Part shown: positions 9,983 through 33,423 of the stretch, one piece after another
How positions within the stretch are numbered: the stretch's first letter is position 1
Layout: every line of letters begins with the position of its first letter
IMG/VR virus record: IMGVR_UViG_2541047939_000004
Strand: one strand, 5' to 3'
Source of the DNA: a virus
Taxonomy: Duplodnaviria > Heunggongvirae > Uroviricota > Caudoviricetes
Length of the DNA: 33,423 nt
The notes under the pieces: generated by a model
The model's database searches: none
The model's input: the letters and a program-made list of their open reading frames with translations, nothing else
Told to the model about the DNA's origin: nothing
Position numbers and translations under genes: made by a program

Positions 9983-10735
9983 TTATGCTGCAAGTCTCTT
10001 AACCCAAGTCTCTCTTTTGGAGAATGGTAGAACTTGGCTTGATTCATGGAAGAGTAAGGAGAGTTGTTGCATTTGATCACCAATTGCTTCGCTGTCTATA
10101 ACAACAAATCTGTTGTTATACTCCTCACTTGAAGCTTTAAGATCAATTAGTTTCCCAAGCAATGAGTAAGCACTATTCCAGCTTCCTCCGTGTTTCACGC
10201 TTGATGTAAAAACGTATTTAGGTATGTCGGTTTTTATTGTTACAGGGACGGTAATTTGATGTCCACTCAAGCCATATACGTTTTCACGAAGAGAAAGTGC
10301 GTCTCTAAGCTCTGTGTGATATAGATAATCAATAACCATACTTTCAAACTTTTCAGCTTGAACTGGCTGATACCAGTCTAACGACAAAGTTGATGCGAGT
10401 ATACCAGCTCTAATTATGTTCGATGTAATCGCACCGACATCCTTTTCTGTTGCCCAAGCAATGATTTCTCCTCGAGCATTGAGTTCTGCGCCTTCTTTAA
10501 GCAGTAATTGTCGTATCTCATCAAGTCGTTTTTTGGTAAGCGAGATCCCTCTTGCCTCCATATTCATTAAGGCATCGCATCTGTCACTAACTAAATACCT
10601 ACCATTGACTTCACGGATAAAGGCACCGACATGCTCTCCATCATCACAGTAAGTGAATGGACTGATAATTCTCAAGGTCTTGCCTATTGGATGGCATTCG
10701 AAACCTAGTTGTGAGATCACTGTTGAGCACATCAT
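9983..10735 (-). CDS. Uncharacterised protein, distal gene of rex-position cassette
   Basis: 250-aa ORF, ATG 10735 overlaps upstream stop (ATGA); no TM segment; no motif I recognise; AT-rich codon usage. Confidence 0.7.
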   Translation of the reverse strand: MMCSTVISQLGFECHPIGKTLRIISPFTYCDDGEHVGAFIREVNGRYLVSDRCDALMNMEARGISLTKKRLDEIRQLLLKEGAELNARGEIIAWATEKDVGAITSNIIRAGILASTLSLDWYQPVQAEKFESMVIDYLYHTELRDALSLRENVYGLSGHQITVPVTIKTDIPKYVFTSSVKHGGSWNSAYSLLGKLIDLKASSEEYNNRFVVIDSEAIGDQMQQLSLLFHESSQVLPFSKRETWVKRLAA

Positions 10736-11289
10736 ATTCCAAACCCCATTTGCCCCGACTCATCTTCAAGCGGTAAAGGTATTCTCCCAGAGTAAGTTAT
10801 GTTCAGATGTTTACAGAAGTAATTCCAATACCCTACCAGGTCATCTGGGTTTATGTCATCTTCGATTGGAAACGCTATTCTATCACTATAGTATCCAGCT
10901 TCTTCATAGTATACATGGTAGTGAGCACCGTAAATGATATCTTGGTACTTCGGATGATCGACCTTGTAACTATTCGTGTGTTTGTCAAAGTGATAGGTAT
11001 CTACCGCGAAAACCCTCTTGTTATGATAGAAAGCAATAATATTTATTTTAGGGTAAGAAATCGGGTCATCAGGTTCTGAATCCTGATCTGGTTTCCATTT
11101 CAGTTCAAACTTTAGCCCTTGTATAGGTATACAATCCTCATCCAAGGGGATGATATGGGCTTGTAGCCACATATCAGAGCGACTTGGTTTCTGTTTCCAT
11201 TTAACGCCAGAAAAGTTAACTATTTTTTTACAATAAAGTACTTTATCAACTTCTACTTGGCTTGGCTGATAATCATCTATTTTTGCCAA
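10732..11289 (-). CDS. Uncharacterised acidic His/Tyr-rich protein, proximal gene of rex-position cassette
   Basis: 185-aa ORF starting 39 nt downstream of cI stop with SD-like GGGCGG; acidic runs (DQDSEPDDP, EDDINPDD) and HYHVYYEE; no TM segment. Confidence 0.7.
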   Translation of the reverse strand: MAKIDDYQPSQVEVDKVLYCKKIVNFSGVKWKQKPSRSDMWLQAHIIPLDEDCIPIQGLKFELKWKPDQDSEPDDPISYPKINIIAFYHNKRVFAVDTYHFDKHTNSYKVDHPKYQDIIYGAHYHVYYEEAGYYSDRIAFPIEDDINPDDLVGYWNYFCKHLNITYSGRIPLPLEDESGQMGFGI

Positions 11290-17588: not shown

Positions 17589-18671
17589 TTAGAACTGATA
17601 AACCAGACCTACAGCGACGATGTCGTCGGTATCAATACCAGCTGTTTTGGTAAACTTACTATCGTCAATTAAGTTGATTTTGTAATCAACAAAAGTGGAC
17701 ATGTTTTTATTAAAGTAGTAAGTAGCACCGACATCGACATACTTGACTAAGTCTCGGTCACCATGAACACCAAGGTCTTTACCTTTTGACTGAAGGTAAG
17801 CAACAGATGGACGCAGACCGAAGTCAAACTGATATTGTGCTACTGCTTCAAAGTTTTGTGCTTTGTTTGCAATATGGTTATTACCAAAAACGGTCATATT
17901 CTGAGTTTCAGAATATGTGGTAGCCAGATAGATATTGTTCGCATCATATTTCAGGCCTGCAGCCCATACTTCCGCATTTTTGCCGGAGGCATTGAATTTG
18001 CTCTTACCATAGGCGACCTGACCGTCAGTGCGATCTGATTTAGCATAGGTTGCACCCACGCCGAATCCTTCATACTCATAAGTAGTGGAGAAACCGAAAC
18101 CATCACCATTGGCTTCAGTTACGTCAGTGCGGTCATTTTTACCCTGATACTGAGCAGCAAAGTTCAGGCCATCGACCAGACCAAAGAAGTCGTTGTTACG
18201 ATAAGTTGCAACACCAGTAGTGCGACCAGTCATGAACACATCTGTTTGGGTCCAGGTATCACCACCGAATTCTGGCAGAACGTCAGTCCACGCACCGATG
18301 TCGTATGCTACACCGTAGTTACGGCCGTAATCGATTGAGCCGTAATCACCAAATTTCAGGCCTGCAAATGCAAGACGGGTTTTGTCTTTGGAAGAACCTT
18401 GAGATTCAGCACGGTTGCCTTTGAATTCATATTCCCACTGACCGAAACCAGTCAGTTGATCGTTGATTTGGGTTTCACCTTTGAAGCCAAGACGGGCATA
18501 AGTAGTATCACCATCATCTGCATCATTAGAGGAGAAGTAGTGCTTGGCATTAACTTTCCCGTATAGATCCAGCTTGTTACTGTCTTTATTATAAATTTCA
18601 GCTGCCTGAGCAGACATCGCCATCAGTACTGATGCAGCTACAGCAGAAATTGCCACTGTTAATTTTTTCAT
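17589..18671 (-). CDS. nmpC: Outer-membrane general porin (NmpC/Lc/OmpC family), intact
   Basis: ATG 18671 with SD; signal peptide [23 protein letters not shown]; porin sequence ending ...GLVYQF; antisense to the late operon. Confidence 0.9.
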
Positions 18672-19097
18672 TGTACGCCCTTTTTTTGAACTATTATTAA
18701 AAAATGATGTCACTGCGCGATAAATATTCATCTAATCAATGTGATTATTTCAAGATGTAAGTTTTAGTTTCTCATTTAATTTGTGAAGTAGATCTCTATT
18801 TTTATCTGAACCTTTTCTATCTAATCCTATTCATGGCTCTTGTCTGAACAAAAATAAATCTATTAGCTAATTTATATTAATGGCACTTATTTATAAGTGC
18901 TCTATAATTCTTTAGCTTAATTTAAACAAACTAAAAATAACATCGGAAATTATTAACTGGTTATTTGTTGAAGTTTTCTTATGCATTTGTGGTGGTGTTT
19001 TGAACACTCGGTGGCATTCTCACAAATATCATTTAGTAGTTTACGTACGTAAAAAATTGGTTATGCTGTTAAGAGTGGTTACTTCGTCACACAGCTT

Positions 19098-20461: not shown

Positions 20462-20755
20462 TTATTGTGAGCAATACACACGCGCTTCCAGCGGAGTATA
20501 AATGCCTAAAGTAATAAAACCGAGCAATCCATTTACGAATGTTTGCTGGGTTTCTGTTTTAACAACATTTTCTGCACCACCACAAATTTTTGCTGCATCG
20601 ACAGTTTTCTTCTGCCCAATTCCCGAAACGAAGAAATGATGGGTGATGGTTTCCTTTGGTGTTACTGCTGTAGGTTTGTTTCCAACAGTAAACGTCTGTT
20701 GAGCACATCCTGTAATAAGCATTGCCAGAGCGGCAGAAAACAACATTTTTTTCAT
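20462..20755 (-). CDS. bor: Bor lipoprotein (serum resistance)
   Basis: ATG 20755; MKKMLFSAALAMLITGCAQQTFTV... matches remembered lambda Bor. Confidence 0.85.
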   Translation of the reverse strand: MKKMLFSAALAMLITGCAQQTFTVGNKPTAVTPKETITHHFFVSGIGQKKTVDAAKICGGAENVVKTETQQTFVNGLLGFITLGIYTPLEARVYCSQ

Positions 20756-30132: not shown

Positions 30133-30478
30133 TTTTCAGAATGCCTTTGATGCCGCCCTTGCCGGGGTGGACAGTACGATTGTTGAAGTGATGGGCATCA
30201 GTGCGCAGTTCACCTCCGGTGCACAGCGTGGCGGCGAGGTTCATGGCGTTTTTGACGATCCGGAGTCGCTGGGTTTTGCCAGTAGTGGGATCCGTATTGA
30301 AGGAAGTAACCCGTCATTATTTGTGCTTACGGATACGGTTTGTGCTGTACGGCGTGGTGACACGCTGACCATTAACGGCGAGATGTTCTGGGTGGACCGT
30401 GTTTCTCCGGATGACGGAGGGAGTTGTTATCTCTGGCTCAACCGGGGGCAACCACCTGCCGCCAGCCGTCGCCGCTGA
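30125..30478 (+). CDS. FII: Head-tail connector FII
   Basis: ATG 30125 overlapping FI; C-terminal RRGDTLTI...FWVDRVSPDDGGSC.LWL.RG.PP matches lambda FII. Confidence 0.85.
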   Translation: MRDFQNAFDAALAGVDSTIVEVMGISAQFTSGAQRGGEVHGVFDDPESLGFASSGIRIEGSNPSLFVLTDTVCAVRRGDTLTINGEMFWVDRVSPDDGGSCYLWLNRGQPPAASRRR

Positions 30479-30489
30479 AAGGGGGATGT

Positions 30490-31068
30490 ATGGCCATAAA
30501 AGGTCTTGAGCAGGCCGTTGAAAACCTCAGCCGTATCAGCAAAACGGCAGTGCCTGGTGCCGCCGCAATGGCCATTAACCGCGTTGCTTCATCCGCGATA
30601 TCGCAGTCGGCGTCACTGGTTGCCCGTGAGACAAAGGTACGCCGGAAACTGGTAAAGGAAAGGGCCAGGCTGAAAAGGGCCACGGTCAAAAATCCGCAGG
30701 CCAGAATCAAAGTTAACCGGGGGGATTTGCCCGTAATCAGGCTGGGTAATGCGCGGGTTGTCCTTTCGCGCCGCAGGCGTCGTAAAAAGGGGCAGCGTTC
30801 ATCCCTGAAAGGTGGCGGCAGCGTGCTTGTGGTGGGTAACCGTCGTATTCCCGGCGCGTTTATTCAGCAACTGAAAAATGGCCGCTGGCATGTCATGCAG
30901 CGTGTGGCCGGGAAAAACCGTTACCCCATTGATGTGGTGAAAATTCCGATGGCGGTGCCGCTGACCACGGCGTTTAAACAGAATATTGAGCGGATACGGC
31001 GTGAGCGTCTTCCGAAAGAGCTGGGCTATGCGCTGCAGCATCAACTGAGGATGGTAATAAAGCGATGA
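30490..31068 (+). CDS. Z: Tail completion protein Z
   Basis: ATG 30490; 192 aa MAIKGLEQAVENLSRISKTAVPGAAAMAINRVASS... near-identical to remembered lambda Z. Confidence 0.9.
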   Translation: MAIKGLEQAVENLSRISKTAVPGAAAMAINRVASSAISQSASLVARETKVRRKLVKERARLKRATVKNPQARIKVNRGDLPVIRLGNARVVLSRRRRRKKGQRSSLKGGGSVLVVGNRRIPGAFIQQLKNGRWHVMQRVAGKNRYPIDVVKIPMAVPLTTAFKQNIERIRRERLPKELGYALQHQLRMVIKR

Positions 31069-31460
31069 AACATACTGAATTCCGTGCAGCCGTACTGGAT
31101 GCACTGGAAAAACATGACACCGGGGCGACGCTTTTTGATGGTCGCCCCGCTGTTTTTGATGAGGCGGATTTTCCGGCAATTGCCGTTTATCTCACCGGCG
31201 CTGAATACACGGGCGAAGAGCTGGACAGCGATACCTGGCAGGCGGAGCTGCATATTGAAGTTTTCCTGCCTGCTCAGGTGCCGGATTCAGAGCTGGATTC
31301 GTGGATGGAAAGCCGGATTTATCCGGCGATGAGCGATATCCCGGCACTGTCAGATTTGATCACCAGTATGGTGGCCAGTGGCTATGACTACCGGCGCGAC
31401 GATGATGCGGGCCTGTGGAGTTCAGCCGATCTGACTTATGTCATTACCTATGAAATGTGA
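31065..31460 (+). CDS. U: Tail terminator U (copy 1)
   Basis: 131 aa, near-identical to remembered lambda U; ATGA overlap with Z. Confidence 0.9.
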
Positions 31461-31467
31461 GGACGAT

Positions 31468-32208
31468 ATGCCAACACCAAATCCTCTGGCACCGGTGAAA
31501 GGGGCCGGAACCACACTGTGGGTTTATAACGGGAGCGGCGACCCTTATGCAAACCCGCTTTCAGACAATGACTGGTCGCGTCTGGCAAAAATTAAAGACC
31601 TGACGCCCGGCGAACTGACCGCTGAGTCCTATGACGACAGTTATCTCGATGATGAAGATGCGGACTGGACCGCGACCGGGCAGGGGCAGAAATCCGCCGG
31701 AGATACCAGCTTCACGCTGGCGTGGATGCCCGGAGAGCAGGGGCAGCAGGCGCTGCTGGCGTGGTTTAATGAAGGTGATACCCGTGCCTATAAAATCCGC
31801 TTCCCGAACGGCACGGTCGATGTGTTCCGTGGCTGGGTCAGCAGTATCGGTAAGGCGGTGACGGCGAAGGAAGTGATCACCCGTACGGTGAAGGTCACCA
31901 ATGTGGGCCGTCCGTCAATGGCAGAAGATCGCAGTACGGTGACGGCGGCAACCGGTATGACCGTGACGCCTGCCAGCTCCTCGGTGGTGAAAGGGCAGAG
32001 CACCACGCTGACCGTGGCCTTCCAGCCGGAGGGCGCAACTGACAAGAGCTTCCGTGCGGTGTCAGCGGATAAAACAAAAGCCACCGTGTCGGTCAGTGGT
32101 ATGACCATCACCGTGAACGGCGTTGCTGCAGGCAAGGTCAACATTCCGGTTGTATCCGGTAATGGTGAACTTGCTGCGGTTGCAGAAATCACTGTCACCG
32201 ACAGTTAA
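31468..32208 (+). CDS. V: Major tail protein V (copy 1)
   Basis: ATG 31468; 246 aa, near-identical to remembered lambda V. Confidence 0.9.
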
Positions 32209-32223
32209 TCCGGAGAGTCAGCG

Positions 32224-32727
32224 ATGTTCCTGAAAACCGAATCATTTGAACATAACGGCGTGACCGTCACGCTTTCTGAACTGTCAGCCCTAAAGGTACG
32301 CCGGAAACTGGTAAAGGAAAGGGCCAGGCTGAAAAGGGCCACGGTCAAAAATCCGCAGGCCAGAATCAAAGTTAACCGGGGGGATTTGCCCGTAATCAGG
32401 CTGGGTAATGCGCGGGTTGTCCTTTCGCGCCGCAGGCGTCGTAAAAAGGGGCAGCGTTCATCCCTGAAAGGTGGCGGCAGCGTGCTTGTGGTGGGTAACC
32501 GTCGTATTCCCGGCGCGTTTATTCAGCAACTGAAAAATGGCCGCTGGCATGTCATGCAGCGTGTGGCCGGGAAAAACCGTTACCCCATTGATGTGGTGAA
32601 AATTCCGATGGCGGTGCCGCTGACCACGGCGTTTAAACAGAATATTGAGCGGATACGGCGTGAGCGTCTTCCGAAAGAGCTGGGCTATGCGCTGCAGCAT
32701 CAACTGAGGATGGTAATAAAGCGATGA
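32224..32727 (+). CDS. Chimeric ORF: gpG N-terminal 23 aa fused in frame to gpZ C-terminal ~144 aa (duplication junction)
   Basis: MFLKTESFEHNGVTVTLSELSAL (lambda G start) then K-VRRKLVKERARLKR... identical to Z residues from ~49 onward; junction at 32291/32292. Confidence 0.6.
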   Translation: MFLKTESFEHNGVTVTLSELSALKVRRKLVKERARLKRATVKNPQARIKVNRGDLPVIRLGNARVVLSRRRRRKKGQRSSLKGGGSVLVVGNRRIPGAFIQQLKNGRWHVMQRVAGKNRYPIDVVKIPMAVPLTTAFKQNIERIRRERLPKELGYALQHQLRMVIKR

Positions 32728-33119
32728 AACATACTGAATTCCGTGCAGCCGTACTGGATGCACTGGAAAAACATGACACCGGGGCGACGCTTTTTGATGG
32801 TCGCCCCGCTGTTTTTGATGAGGCGGATTTTCCGGCAATTGCCGTTTATCTCACCGGCGCTGAATACACGGGCGAAGAGCTGGACAGCGATACCTGGCAG
32901 GCGGAGCTGCATATCGAAGTTTTCCTGCCTGCTCAGGTGCCGGATTCAGAGCTGGATTCGTGGATGGAAAGCCGGATTTATCCGGCGATGAGCGATATCC
33001 CGGCACTGTCAGATTTGATCACCAGTATGGTGGCCAGTGGCTATGACTACCGGCGCGACGATGATGCGGGCCTGTGGAGTTCAGCCGATCTGACTTATGT
33101 CATTACCTATGAAATGTGA
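32724..33119 (+). CDS. U: Tail terminator U (copy 2)
   Basis: Same protein as copy 1, offset +1659 bp; at least one synonymous difference (ATT/ATC at 31256/32915). Confidence 0.85.
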
Positions 33120-33126
33120 GGACGAT

Positions 33127-33423
33127 ATGCCAACACCAAATCCTCTGGCACCGGTGAAAGGGGCCGGAACCACACTGTGGGTTTATAACGGGAGCGGCGA
33201 CCCTTATGCAAACCCGCTTTCAGACAATGACTGGTCGCGTCTGGCAAAAATTAAAGACCTGACGCCCGGCGAACTGACCGCTGAGTCCTATGACGACAGT
33301 TATCTCGATGATGAAGATGCGGACTGGACCGCGACCGGGCAGGGGCAGAAATCCGCCGGAGATACCAGCTTCACGCTGGCGTGGATGCCCGGAGAGCAGG
33401 GGCAGCAGGCGCTGCTGGCGTGG
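33127..33423 (+). CDS. V: Major tail protein V (copy 2, truncated by window end)
   Basis: Identical N-terminus to copy 1, offset +1659 bp; continues beyond the window. Confidence 0.8.

What the first reader, a model, noticed from the sequence alone, without database searches (positions are those of the whole stretch)
30633..33423. 1659-bp tandem duplication in the tail-gene cluster creating an in-frame G'::Z' chimeric ORF
Sequence 30633-32291 (Z codon ~49 onward, U, V, first 69 nt of G) is repeated directly from 32292. The junction joins G codon 23 to the Z interior in frame, giving a 167-aa ORF (32224-32727) that would be translated from the G ribosome-binding site, followed by second intact copies of U and V. 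The copies differ by at least one synonymous SNP (31256 T versus 32915 C), which argues for a real duplication. There is no obvious microhomology at the breakpoint. Extra Z-fragment, U and V dosage could disturb tail assembly; a prophage has no packaging-size constraint on carrying it.
Basis: seen in the sequence. Interest (0 to 1): 0.6.

Follow-up and report, generated by a model that had tools for sequence, protein, structure and literature searches.

The report
Unfinished tail-gene duplication beside assembly gap
A draft E. coli genome shows a 1.66-kb stretch of prophage tail genes starting to repeat itself, but the second copy runs straight into an unsequenced gap and occurs in no other genome, so it is either a young private duplication or an assembly error, and ordinary either way.

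Summary
The repeat is in the sequence. Window 32292-33423 repeats 30633-31764 with one mismatch. The joint has no shared bases and creates the 167-aa G'::'Z ORF.

The source is draft scaffold KE702366.1 (GCA_000461275.1). There the second copy is cut after 1,134 of 1,659 bases by a run of 2,265 Ns. Sequence resumes inside gene T. The second V is therefore truncated, and G codons 24-140 and the start of T are not assembled.

The element is a well-known phage-21/lambda-type prophage at icd. PhiR57_1 and E. coli ABU 83972 carry it with single-copy Z-U-V-G-T-H.

The joint is absent from 5,426 complete E. coli genomes, 50,697 phage records, IMG/VR, GTDB representatives and JGI metagenomes. The chimeric protein sits on one contig among about 15 billion proteins.

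My best reading (about 0.5) is a young, strain-private tandem duplication or triplication made by homology-independent illegitimate recombination. It would be silent in the lysogen, unstable, and would push the genome to about 106% of lambda length. A misassembly at the gap (about 0.35) cannot be excluded without the reads. Interest is low.

The parts
30490..31068 (+). Z, tail completion gene, intact first copy (192 aa)
   Evidence: Annotated Z in PhiR57_1 at identical coordinates. Pfam Minor_tail_Z in the source scaffold.
30633..32291 (+). Repeat unit, copy 1 (1,659 nt): Z from the third base of codon 48, then U, V and the first 68 nt of G
   Evidence: Identical to PhiR57_1 over this stretch.
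31065..31460 (+). U, tail terminator, copy 1 (T at 31256)
31468..32208 (+). V, major tail protein, copy 1, intact (246 aa)
32291..32292 (+). Novel joint ...CAGCCCT|AAAGGTA..., inside G codon 23 and Z codon 48/49, with zero microhomology
   Evidence: Absent from every other collection searched.
32224..32727 (+). Chimeric ORF G(1-23)::Z(49-192), 167 aa, using the G start codon and GGAG. Deposited as EQZ06265.1 / WP_021571556.1.
32292..33423 (+). Repeat unit, copy 2, incomplete. 1,132 nt lie in the window. The contig ends 2 nt later and 2,265 Ns follow.
32724..33119 (+). U, copy 2, intact, carrying the synonymous C at 32915
33127..33423 (+). V, copy 2, first 99 codons only, cut by the contig end
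   Evidence: (a 99-residue product abutting the gap).

Best explanation
This is a young, strain-private head-to-tail duplication, possibly a triplication or a mixed copy number. It covers 1,659 bp (most of Z, then U, V and the start of G) in the late operon of an icd-integrated phage-21/lambda-type prophage of one E. coli isolate (GCA_000461275.1).

How it arose (inferred): an unequal, homology-independent illegitimate exchange between two DNA copies. These could have been sister chromosomes, or two slightly different lambdoid genomes. The second option would explain why the copies differ at a site that is naturally polymorphic.

What a tandem duplication does (shown for the part that is assembled, inferred for the rest):
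- It destroys no gene.
- It adds one new joint, here an in-frame G(1-23)::Z(49-192) ORF behind the G ribosome-binding site.
- It adds a second U and a second V.

Consequences (inferred from lambda biology):
- The late operon is silent in a lysogen, so the change is neutral there.
- After induction it would give extra U and V plus an N-terminally truncated Z fusion.
- The genome would grow from about 49.9 kb to about 51.6 kb, roughly 106% of lambda, at or above the cos-packaging limit.
- Homologous recombination between the copies would readily restore the single-copy phage.

The identical repeat is also why the short-read assembly broke here.
For: - The joint is embedded in a contig and runs 1,134 bases into the second copy. 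Graph-based short-read assemblers normally need several reads to carry such a joint; this step is inference.
- The two copies differ at one base. At least two physical versions of this U segment with this prophage's own flanks therefore seem to exist. No public sequence matches copy 2 exactly: 0 of 5,426 genomes and 0 IMG/VR loci. A known second prophage type therefore does not explain it.
- The scaffold gap is 2,265 Ns. A single-copy truth needs about -618 bases, one extra copy needs about 1,041, and two extra copies need about 2,700. The positive estimate fits extra DNA.
- The unit ends do not coincide with natural homology ends or polymorphic sites. Position 30632 is C in 157 of 157 IMG/VR loci. 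Position 32292 is G in 118 and A in 2. Alignment ends do not pile up at either boundary. The structure is therefore not two repeat contigs simply abutted.
- The close relative PhiR57_1 is deposited as a complete phage genome with E. coli ECOR13 as host. The family is thus a live phage, not a fossil.
Against: - The second copy stops at a contig end next to an N gap. In addition, 516 bases of unique, compositionally normal sequence (GC 55%, no homopolymers) are missing after it. A simple duplication does not explain that loss.
- The joint has zero microhomology. That is the minority outcome for spontaneous illegitimate recombination in E. coli (established knowledge), but it is what a ligation chimera looks like.
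- A neutral 1.66-kb direct repeat should be lost long before it gains a point mutation, so a difference between copies is unexpected.
- The variant is the common natural allele at one of only 58 of 1,132 commonly polymorphic sites. The chance of that for a random change is roughly 0.03.
- The joint and the chimeric protein occur in this assembly alone. No independent assembly of the strain was found.
- The gap size fits neither two nor three copies well.
Confidence: 0.5

Rival explanations
1. Assembly artefact at a gap. The prophage has the normal single-copy Z-U-V-G-T-H order. The assembler or a gap-patching or polishing step extended the contig end through a chimeric read, for example a mate-pair circularisation junction. 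Such a junction joins a downstream end to an upstream start on the same strand, bluntly. The extension then re-read Z-U-V.
For: - The anomaly lies directly against a contig end and a 2,265-N gap, and unique sequence (reference 32292-32807) is missing there.
- The joint has no microhomology.
- It is absent from all 5,426 complete E. coli genomes, although 216 of them carry this prophage over at least 80% of the 24-kb query. It is also absent from all phage and metagenome collections searched.
- Draft assemblies built from jumping libraries are documented to have errors near gaps (PMC4580222).
- Contig B starts one base after a commonly polymorphic site, 32807. This hints that a related co-resident prophage confused the graph.
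Against: - A one-off chimeric read should not survive error correction. This is inference, and the assembler is not known from the tools.
- The gap estimate would have to be wrong by about 2.9 kb.
- The copies are not identical, and copy 2 matches no known second prophage.
- The unit ends are not at repeat boundaries.
Confidence: 0.35
2. Chimeric contig that involves a second, closely related lambdoid prophage in the same genome. The stretch after the joint, with the C allele, belongs to a rearranged or defective second prophage elsewhere on the chromosome. It was threaded onto the icd prophage through shared tail-gene sequence.
For: - C at the 31256-equivalent site is a common allele of other lambdoid U genes: 31 of 77 and 68 of 157, with exact 101-nt matches in, for example, O104:H4 prophages.
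- Many E. coli genomes hold several copies of these tail genes, up to 9 places per genome.
- Draft contigs often break inside Z. The chimera's protein cluster lists many partial Z proteins of 149-165 aa. One IMG/VR contig, L165, starts at 30619, just after polymorphic site 30617.
Against: - A G-to-Z joint still has to exist physically somewhere, so this only moves the rearrangement.
- Apart from the one base, copy 2 is identical to this prophage over 1,132 nt. No such second haplotype is known.
- Typical C haplotypes carry further differences 77 nt to the left and 43 nt to the right, and these are absent here.
Confidence: 0.1

Closest known systems
Single-copy reference prophages: Escherichia phage PhiR57_1 (PV340572.1), the E. 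coli ABU 83972 icd prophage (NC_017631.1), phage 21 and ev017
   Same: The window is collinear base for base with these records up to 32291. It has 11 substitutions against PhiR57_1 and 6 against ABU 83972. The content matches: integrase next to icd, 21-type head genes, lambda-type tail genes, iss/bor, a porin gene and sitABCD.
   Different: All of them read Z-U-V-G-T-H once. None has the G|Z joint.
Spontaneous tandem duplications of phage lambda, studied in the 1970s in deletion derivatives by Bellett, Busse, Emmons and Baldwin (my recollection, not checked here)
   Same: Both are head-to-tail duplications of a few kb with one novel joint. They arise without the known recombination systems and are lost by homologous recombination between the copies.
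   Different: Those duplications were selected because they restored DNA content to under-length genomes. Here the genome is already full length and the duplication takes it to or past the packaging limit. It is seen in a prophage, not in a phage stock.
Bacterial chromosomal tandem duplications and amplifications (general knowledge: Anderson and Roth; Sandegren and Andersson)
   Same: A private, unstable copy-number change with a single join point, and possibly heterogeneous copy number. The gap size here lies between the values expected for two and for three copies.
   Different: Most such joints lie in repeats (IS, rrn, REP) or in short microhomologies. This one has none. No selective benefit is apparent.
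Gap-adjacent errors in short-read draft scaffolds built from jumping libraries
   Same: A structural oddity directly beside an N run, with unique sequence missing and gene models truncated at the gap (general description in PMC4580222).
   Different: The joint lies 1,134 bases inside the contig, the copies are not identical, and the N run is long rather than minimal.

Membership tests
Genuine tandem duplication | A unit repeated head to tail with one novel joint | tested here: met
   1,132 of 1,132 comparable bases repeat at a spacing of 1,659, with one mismatch and a clean joint.
Genuine tandem duplication | Both copies complete and followed by the normal downstream sequence | tested here: not met
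   Copy 2 is cut after 1,134 of 1,659 nt by a contig end and 2,265 Ns. Reference positions 32292-32807 are absent.
Genuine tandem duplication | Reads spanning the joint and doubled read depth | not testable with these tools
   No reads are available. No independent (Logan) assembly of the strain was found through its private portal protein.
Genuine tandem duplication | Distance across the region consistent with extra DNA | tested here: inconclusive
   The gap is 2,265 Ns. The expected values are about -618 for no extra copy, 1,041 for one and 2,700 for two.
Lambda-type tail gene cluster Z-U-V-G-T-H | Gene order and protein families | tested here: met
   Pfam Minor_tail_Z, Phage_tail_U, Phage_TTP_12/Big_2, Phage_TAC_2 and TMP_2 occur in order. 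Differences from lambda run at about 0-11 per 100 nt between 30500 and 33300.
Assembly artefact | The anomaly abuts a contig end or gap and is absent from close relatives | tested here: met
   This is necessary but not sufficient, because a real repeat also breaks assemblies.
Assembly artefact | Unit ends coincide with the boundaries of repeats shared with other prophages (abutted repeat contigs) | tested here: not met
   Position 30632 is invariant (157 of 157) and 32292 nearly so (118 G, 2 A). Alignment ends do not pile up at either boundary.

The most novel reading that the evidence does not exclude
The duplication is real and stably kept in this lineage. It would then be a caught-in-the-act case of gene birth in a phage tail module: a new G-leader::Z-core fusion expressed at G level plus a doubled dose of U and V, with a measurable effect on tail assembly or tail-length control. 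It might have formed by illegitimate exchange between two different lambdoid genomes.
Probability: 0.03. Interest if true: 0.35.

Novelty: new member of a known kind. Interest (0 to 1): 0.12.

Why it matters
It matters little. If real, it is one more private and probably short-lived copy-number variant in a very well-known prophage family, with no sign of selection. If it is an artefact, the practical lesson is about annotation. The chimeric 'phage tail protein' WP_021571556.1 and the truncated V and T models in this assembly should not be read as biology. Windows that end at an N gap should be flagged before they are interpreted.

Tried and rejected
- **Synthetic or mutated copy of PhiR57_1.** I considered this because the coordinates are identical up to 32291. 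I rejected it because 7 of the 11 differences from PhiR57_1 are the ABU 83972 alleles, and the exact source scaffold was found.
- **Overlap of circular contig ends.** Rejected because the repeat is internal to a 1.5-Mb scaffold.
- **Two repeat contigs abutted at inter-prophage homology boundaries.** The unit ends are not polymorphic or homology-end sites. The head/tail mosaic boundary lies about 150 nt upstream, near 30466-30490.
- **Independent assembly or sibling strain.** I looked through the chimeric protein, the private portal variant and two private 31-mers. Nothing turned up beyond this scaffold.
- **Other tandem duplications of this unit** among about 200 IMG/VR lambdoid loci. There were none. 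Two loci have a double hit, but one hit of each pair is only about 81% identical to the unit, so they are not duplications of it.
- **Solved structure of gpZ**, to judge what losing residues 1-48 would do. None exists in the PDB by sequence search.
- **Literature search** for the assembly, scaffold and protein accessions. No paper was found.

Full report
**Observation**

A direct repeat with a spacing of 1,659 is present.
- Base by base, window 32292-33423 equals 30633-31764 over all 1,132 comparable positions, apart from 31256 T versus 32915 C.
- The match cannot be extended one base to the left. The 60 bases upstream of the two copies are 10/60 identical.
- The joint falls inside G codon 23 and at the last base of Z codon 48. 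It gives the 167-aa ORF 32224-32727, which is G(1-23)::Z(49-192).
- Pfam finds Phage_TAC_2 on residues 1-24 and Minor_tail_Z profile positions 46-190 of 190 on residues 23-167.
- The SNP is synonymous (U codon 64, ATT/ATC). The unit holds 68 nt of G, not 69.

**What the element is**

The window is collinear, without any indel, with Escherichia phage PhiR57_1 (PV340572.1) from position 1 to 32291, with 11 substitutions. It is also collinear with the icd-adjacent prophage of E. coli ABU 83972, with 6 substitutions. Both references read FII-Z-U-V-G-T-H once.

This is a phage-21-type lambdoid.
- Its head genes are 21-like.
- Its tail genes differ from lambda at only about 0-11 positions per 100 nt from roughly position 30500 onward.
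- It carries a porin gene and iss/bor. In the relatives, sitABCD lies downstream.

In ABU 83972 the prophage spans about 49.9 kb, measured from the end of icd to the end of the icd remnant.

**Where the window comes from**

An exact look-up of the chimeric protein found one contig only: NCBI GCA_000461275.1, scaffold KE702366.1 (1,526,657 bp). The protein is EQZ06265.1 / WP_021571556.1 and sits on one contig among about 15 billion proteins.

Reading the scaffold shows the following.
- The contig ends two bases after the window's last base.
- A run of 2,265 Ns follows.
- Sequence resumes at reference position 32808, inside T.

So the second copy is seen for only 1,134 of 1,659 bases, and the second V has 99 of 246 codons. 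Reference positions 32292-32807 are not assembled. They hold G codons 24-140, the GGGAAAG frameshift site and the start of T. That 516-nt stretch is compositionally normal.

**How widespread the joint is**

The joint was not found anywhere else.
- A 400-nt probe across it is covered at 80% or more in none of 5,426 complete E. coli genomes and none of 50,697 phage records.
- An exact 32-mer across it is absent from IMG/VR, GTDB species representatives and JGI metagenomes.
- By contrast, 216 complete genomes carry this prophage over at least 80% of a 24-kb query, always in single-copy form.
- The strain's portal protein has two private substitutions and is found only on this scaffold, so no independent assembly of the strain could be consulted. 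Its private 31-mers are absent from IMG/VR.

**Real or artefact**

Three points favour a real duplication.
- The joint lies inside a contig.
- The two copies are not identical, and no public sequence equals copy 2.
- The N run is long. A single-copy truth would need an overlap of about 618 bases. One extra copy needs about 1,041 and two need about 2,700.

I also tested whether the unit ends are simply places where co-resident lambdoid prophages stop being identical, which would make this two abutted repeat contigs. They are not. Position 30632 is C in 157 of 157 IMG/VR loci. Position 32292 is G in 118 and A in 2. Alignment ends do not pile up there.

Five points count against a real duplication.
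- The anomaly abuts a gap.
- Unique sequence is missing beyond it.
- The joint has no microhomology.
- The structure exists in one draft only.
- The SNP is awkward. A neutral 1.66-kb direct repeat should be lost by homologous recombination long before it gains a mutation.

On the last point, the variant is the common natural allele (C in 31 of 77 full-length homologues) at one of only 58 commonly polymorphic sites among 1,132. The chance of that for a random change is roughly 0.03. This suggests input from another lambdoid sequence. That input could be gene conversion, a duplication formed between two slightly different genomes, or mixed reads from a co-resident prophage. Typical C haplotypes carry further differences 77 nt to the left and 43 nt to the right that copy 2 lacks. 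Contig B starts one base after the commonly polymorphic site 32807, another hint that a related prophage complicates this region.

I put a real duplication or amplification at about 0.5, an artefact at about 0.35, and a chimeric contig involving a second prophage at about 0.1.

**Mechanism and consequence if real (inferred)**

- The duplication would arise from homology-independent illegitimate exchange.
- No gene is lost, because a tandem duplication adds only one new joint.
- The late operon is silent in the lysogen.
- On induction the phage would make extra U and V, and a Z core lacking its first 48 residues behind the G leader.
- The genome would be about 51.6 kb with one extra copy and about 53.3 kb with two. 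That is at or beyond the roughly 105% lambda limit (established knowledge, not tested here).
- Recombination between the copies regenerates the normal phage.
- No gpZ structure is available to judge the fusion.

**Verdict**

The finding is either a private, transient copy-number variant in a very well-known prophage or a gap-adjacent misassembly. It is of low interest either way, and the isolate's reads would settle it.

Noticed in passing
window 9983-10735 (-) and 10732-11289 (-): Two overlapping genes lie directly downstream of cI, in the position rexA/rexB occupy in lambda. One is a DUF1828 protein and the other has a weak DUF6978 match. They hit the PADLOC candidate defence pair PDC-M24B (E = 5e-10) and PDC-M24A (E = 5e-4).
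   Followed up: partly
window 11664, 22121, 25521, 26280: Four substitutions are private to this assembly relative to ABU 83972 and PhiR57_1. All are transitions and all are nonsynonymous: cI A121T, hypothetical protein G66S, portal V125M and portal S378G. The two portal variants are found in no other assembly or IMG/VR contig.
   Followed up: partly
window 17589-18731 (-) and 20462-20755 (-): Lysogenic-conversion cargo flanks the lysis cassette. One gene is an OmpC/OmpD-type porin (Porin_1, E = 2e-151; the ORF is 380 aa, while ABU 83972 annotates 360 aa). The other is iss/bor. In the relatives, sitABCD lies beyond the tail fibre genes, outside the window.
   Followed up: partly
window about 30466-30620 (end of FII and start of Z); locus L165 position 1: The head-module (21-type) to tail-module (lambda-type) mosaic boundary lies near 30466-30490, and the last common polymorphic site is 30617. 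Draft contigs often break inside Z: the chimera's protein cluster lists many partial Z proteins of 149-165 aa, and one IMG/VR contig (L165) starts at 30619.
   Followed up: partly
L003 11203-13467 (scaffold KE702366.1, just after the window end): The 2,265-N gap removes G codons 24-140, the G-T frameshift site and the start of T. The assembly therefore annotates a 99-aa V fragment and an 84-aa T fragment as genes.
   Followed up: yes
L165 (IMGVR_UViG_2563366905_000004), reference positions 31256-31327: This lambdoid is otherwise 99.6% identical to the reference. It carries a tight patch of 7 differences confined to 72 nt of U that starts exactly at the 31256 T/C site. It looks like a short recombination tract among lambdoid U genes.
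   Followed up: no
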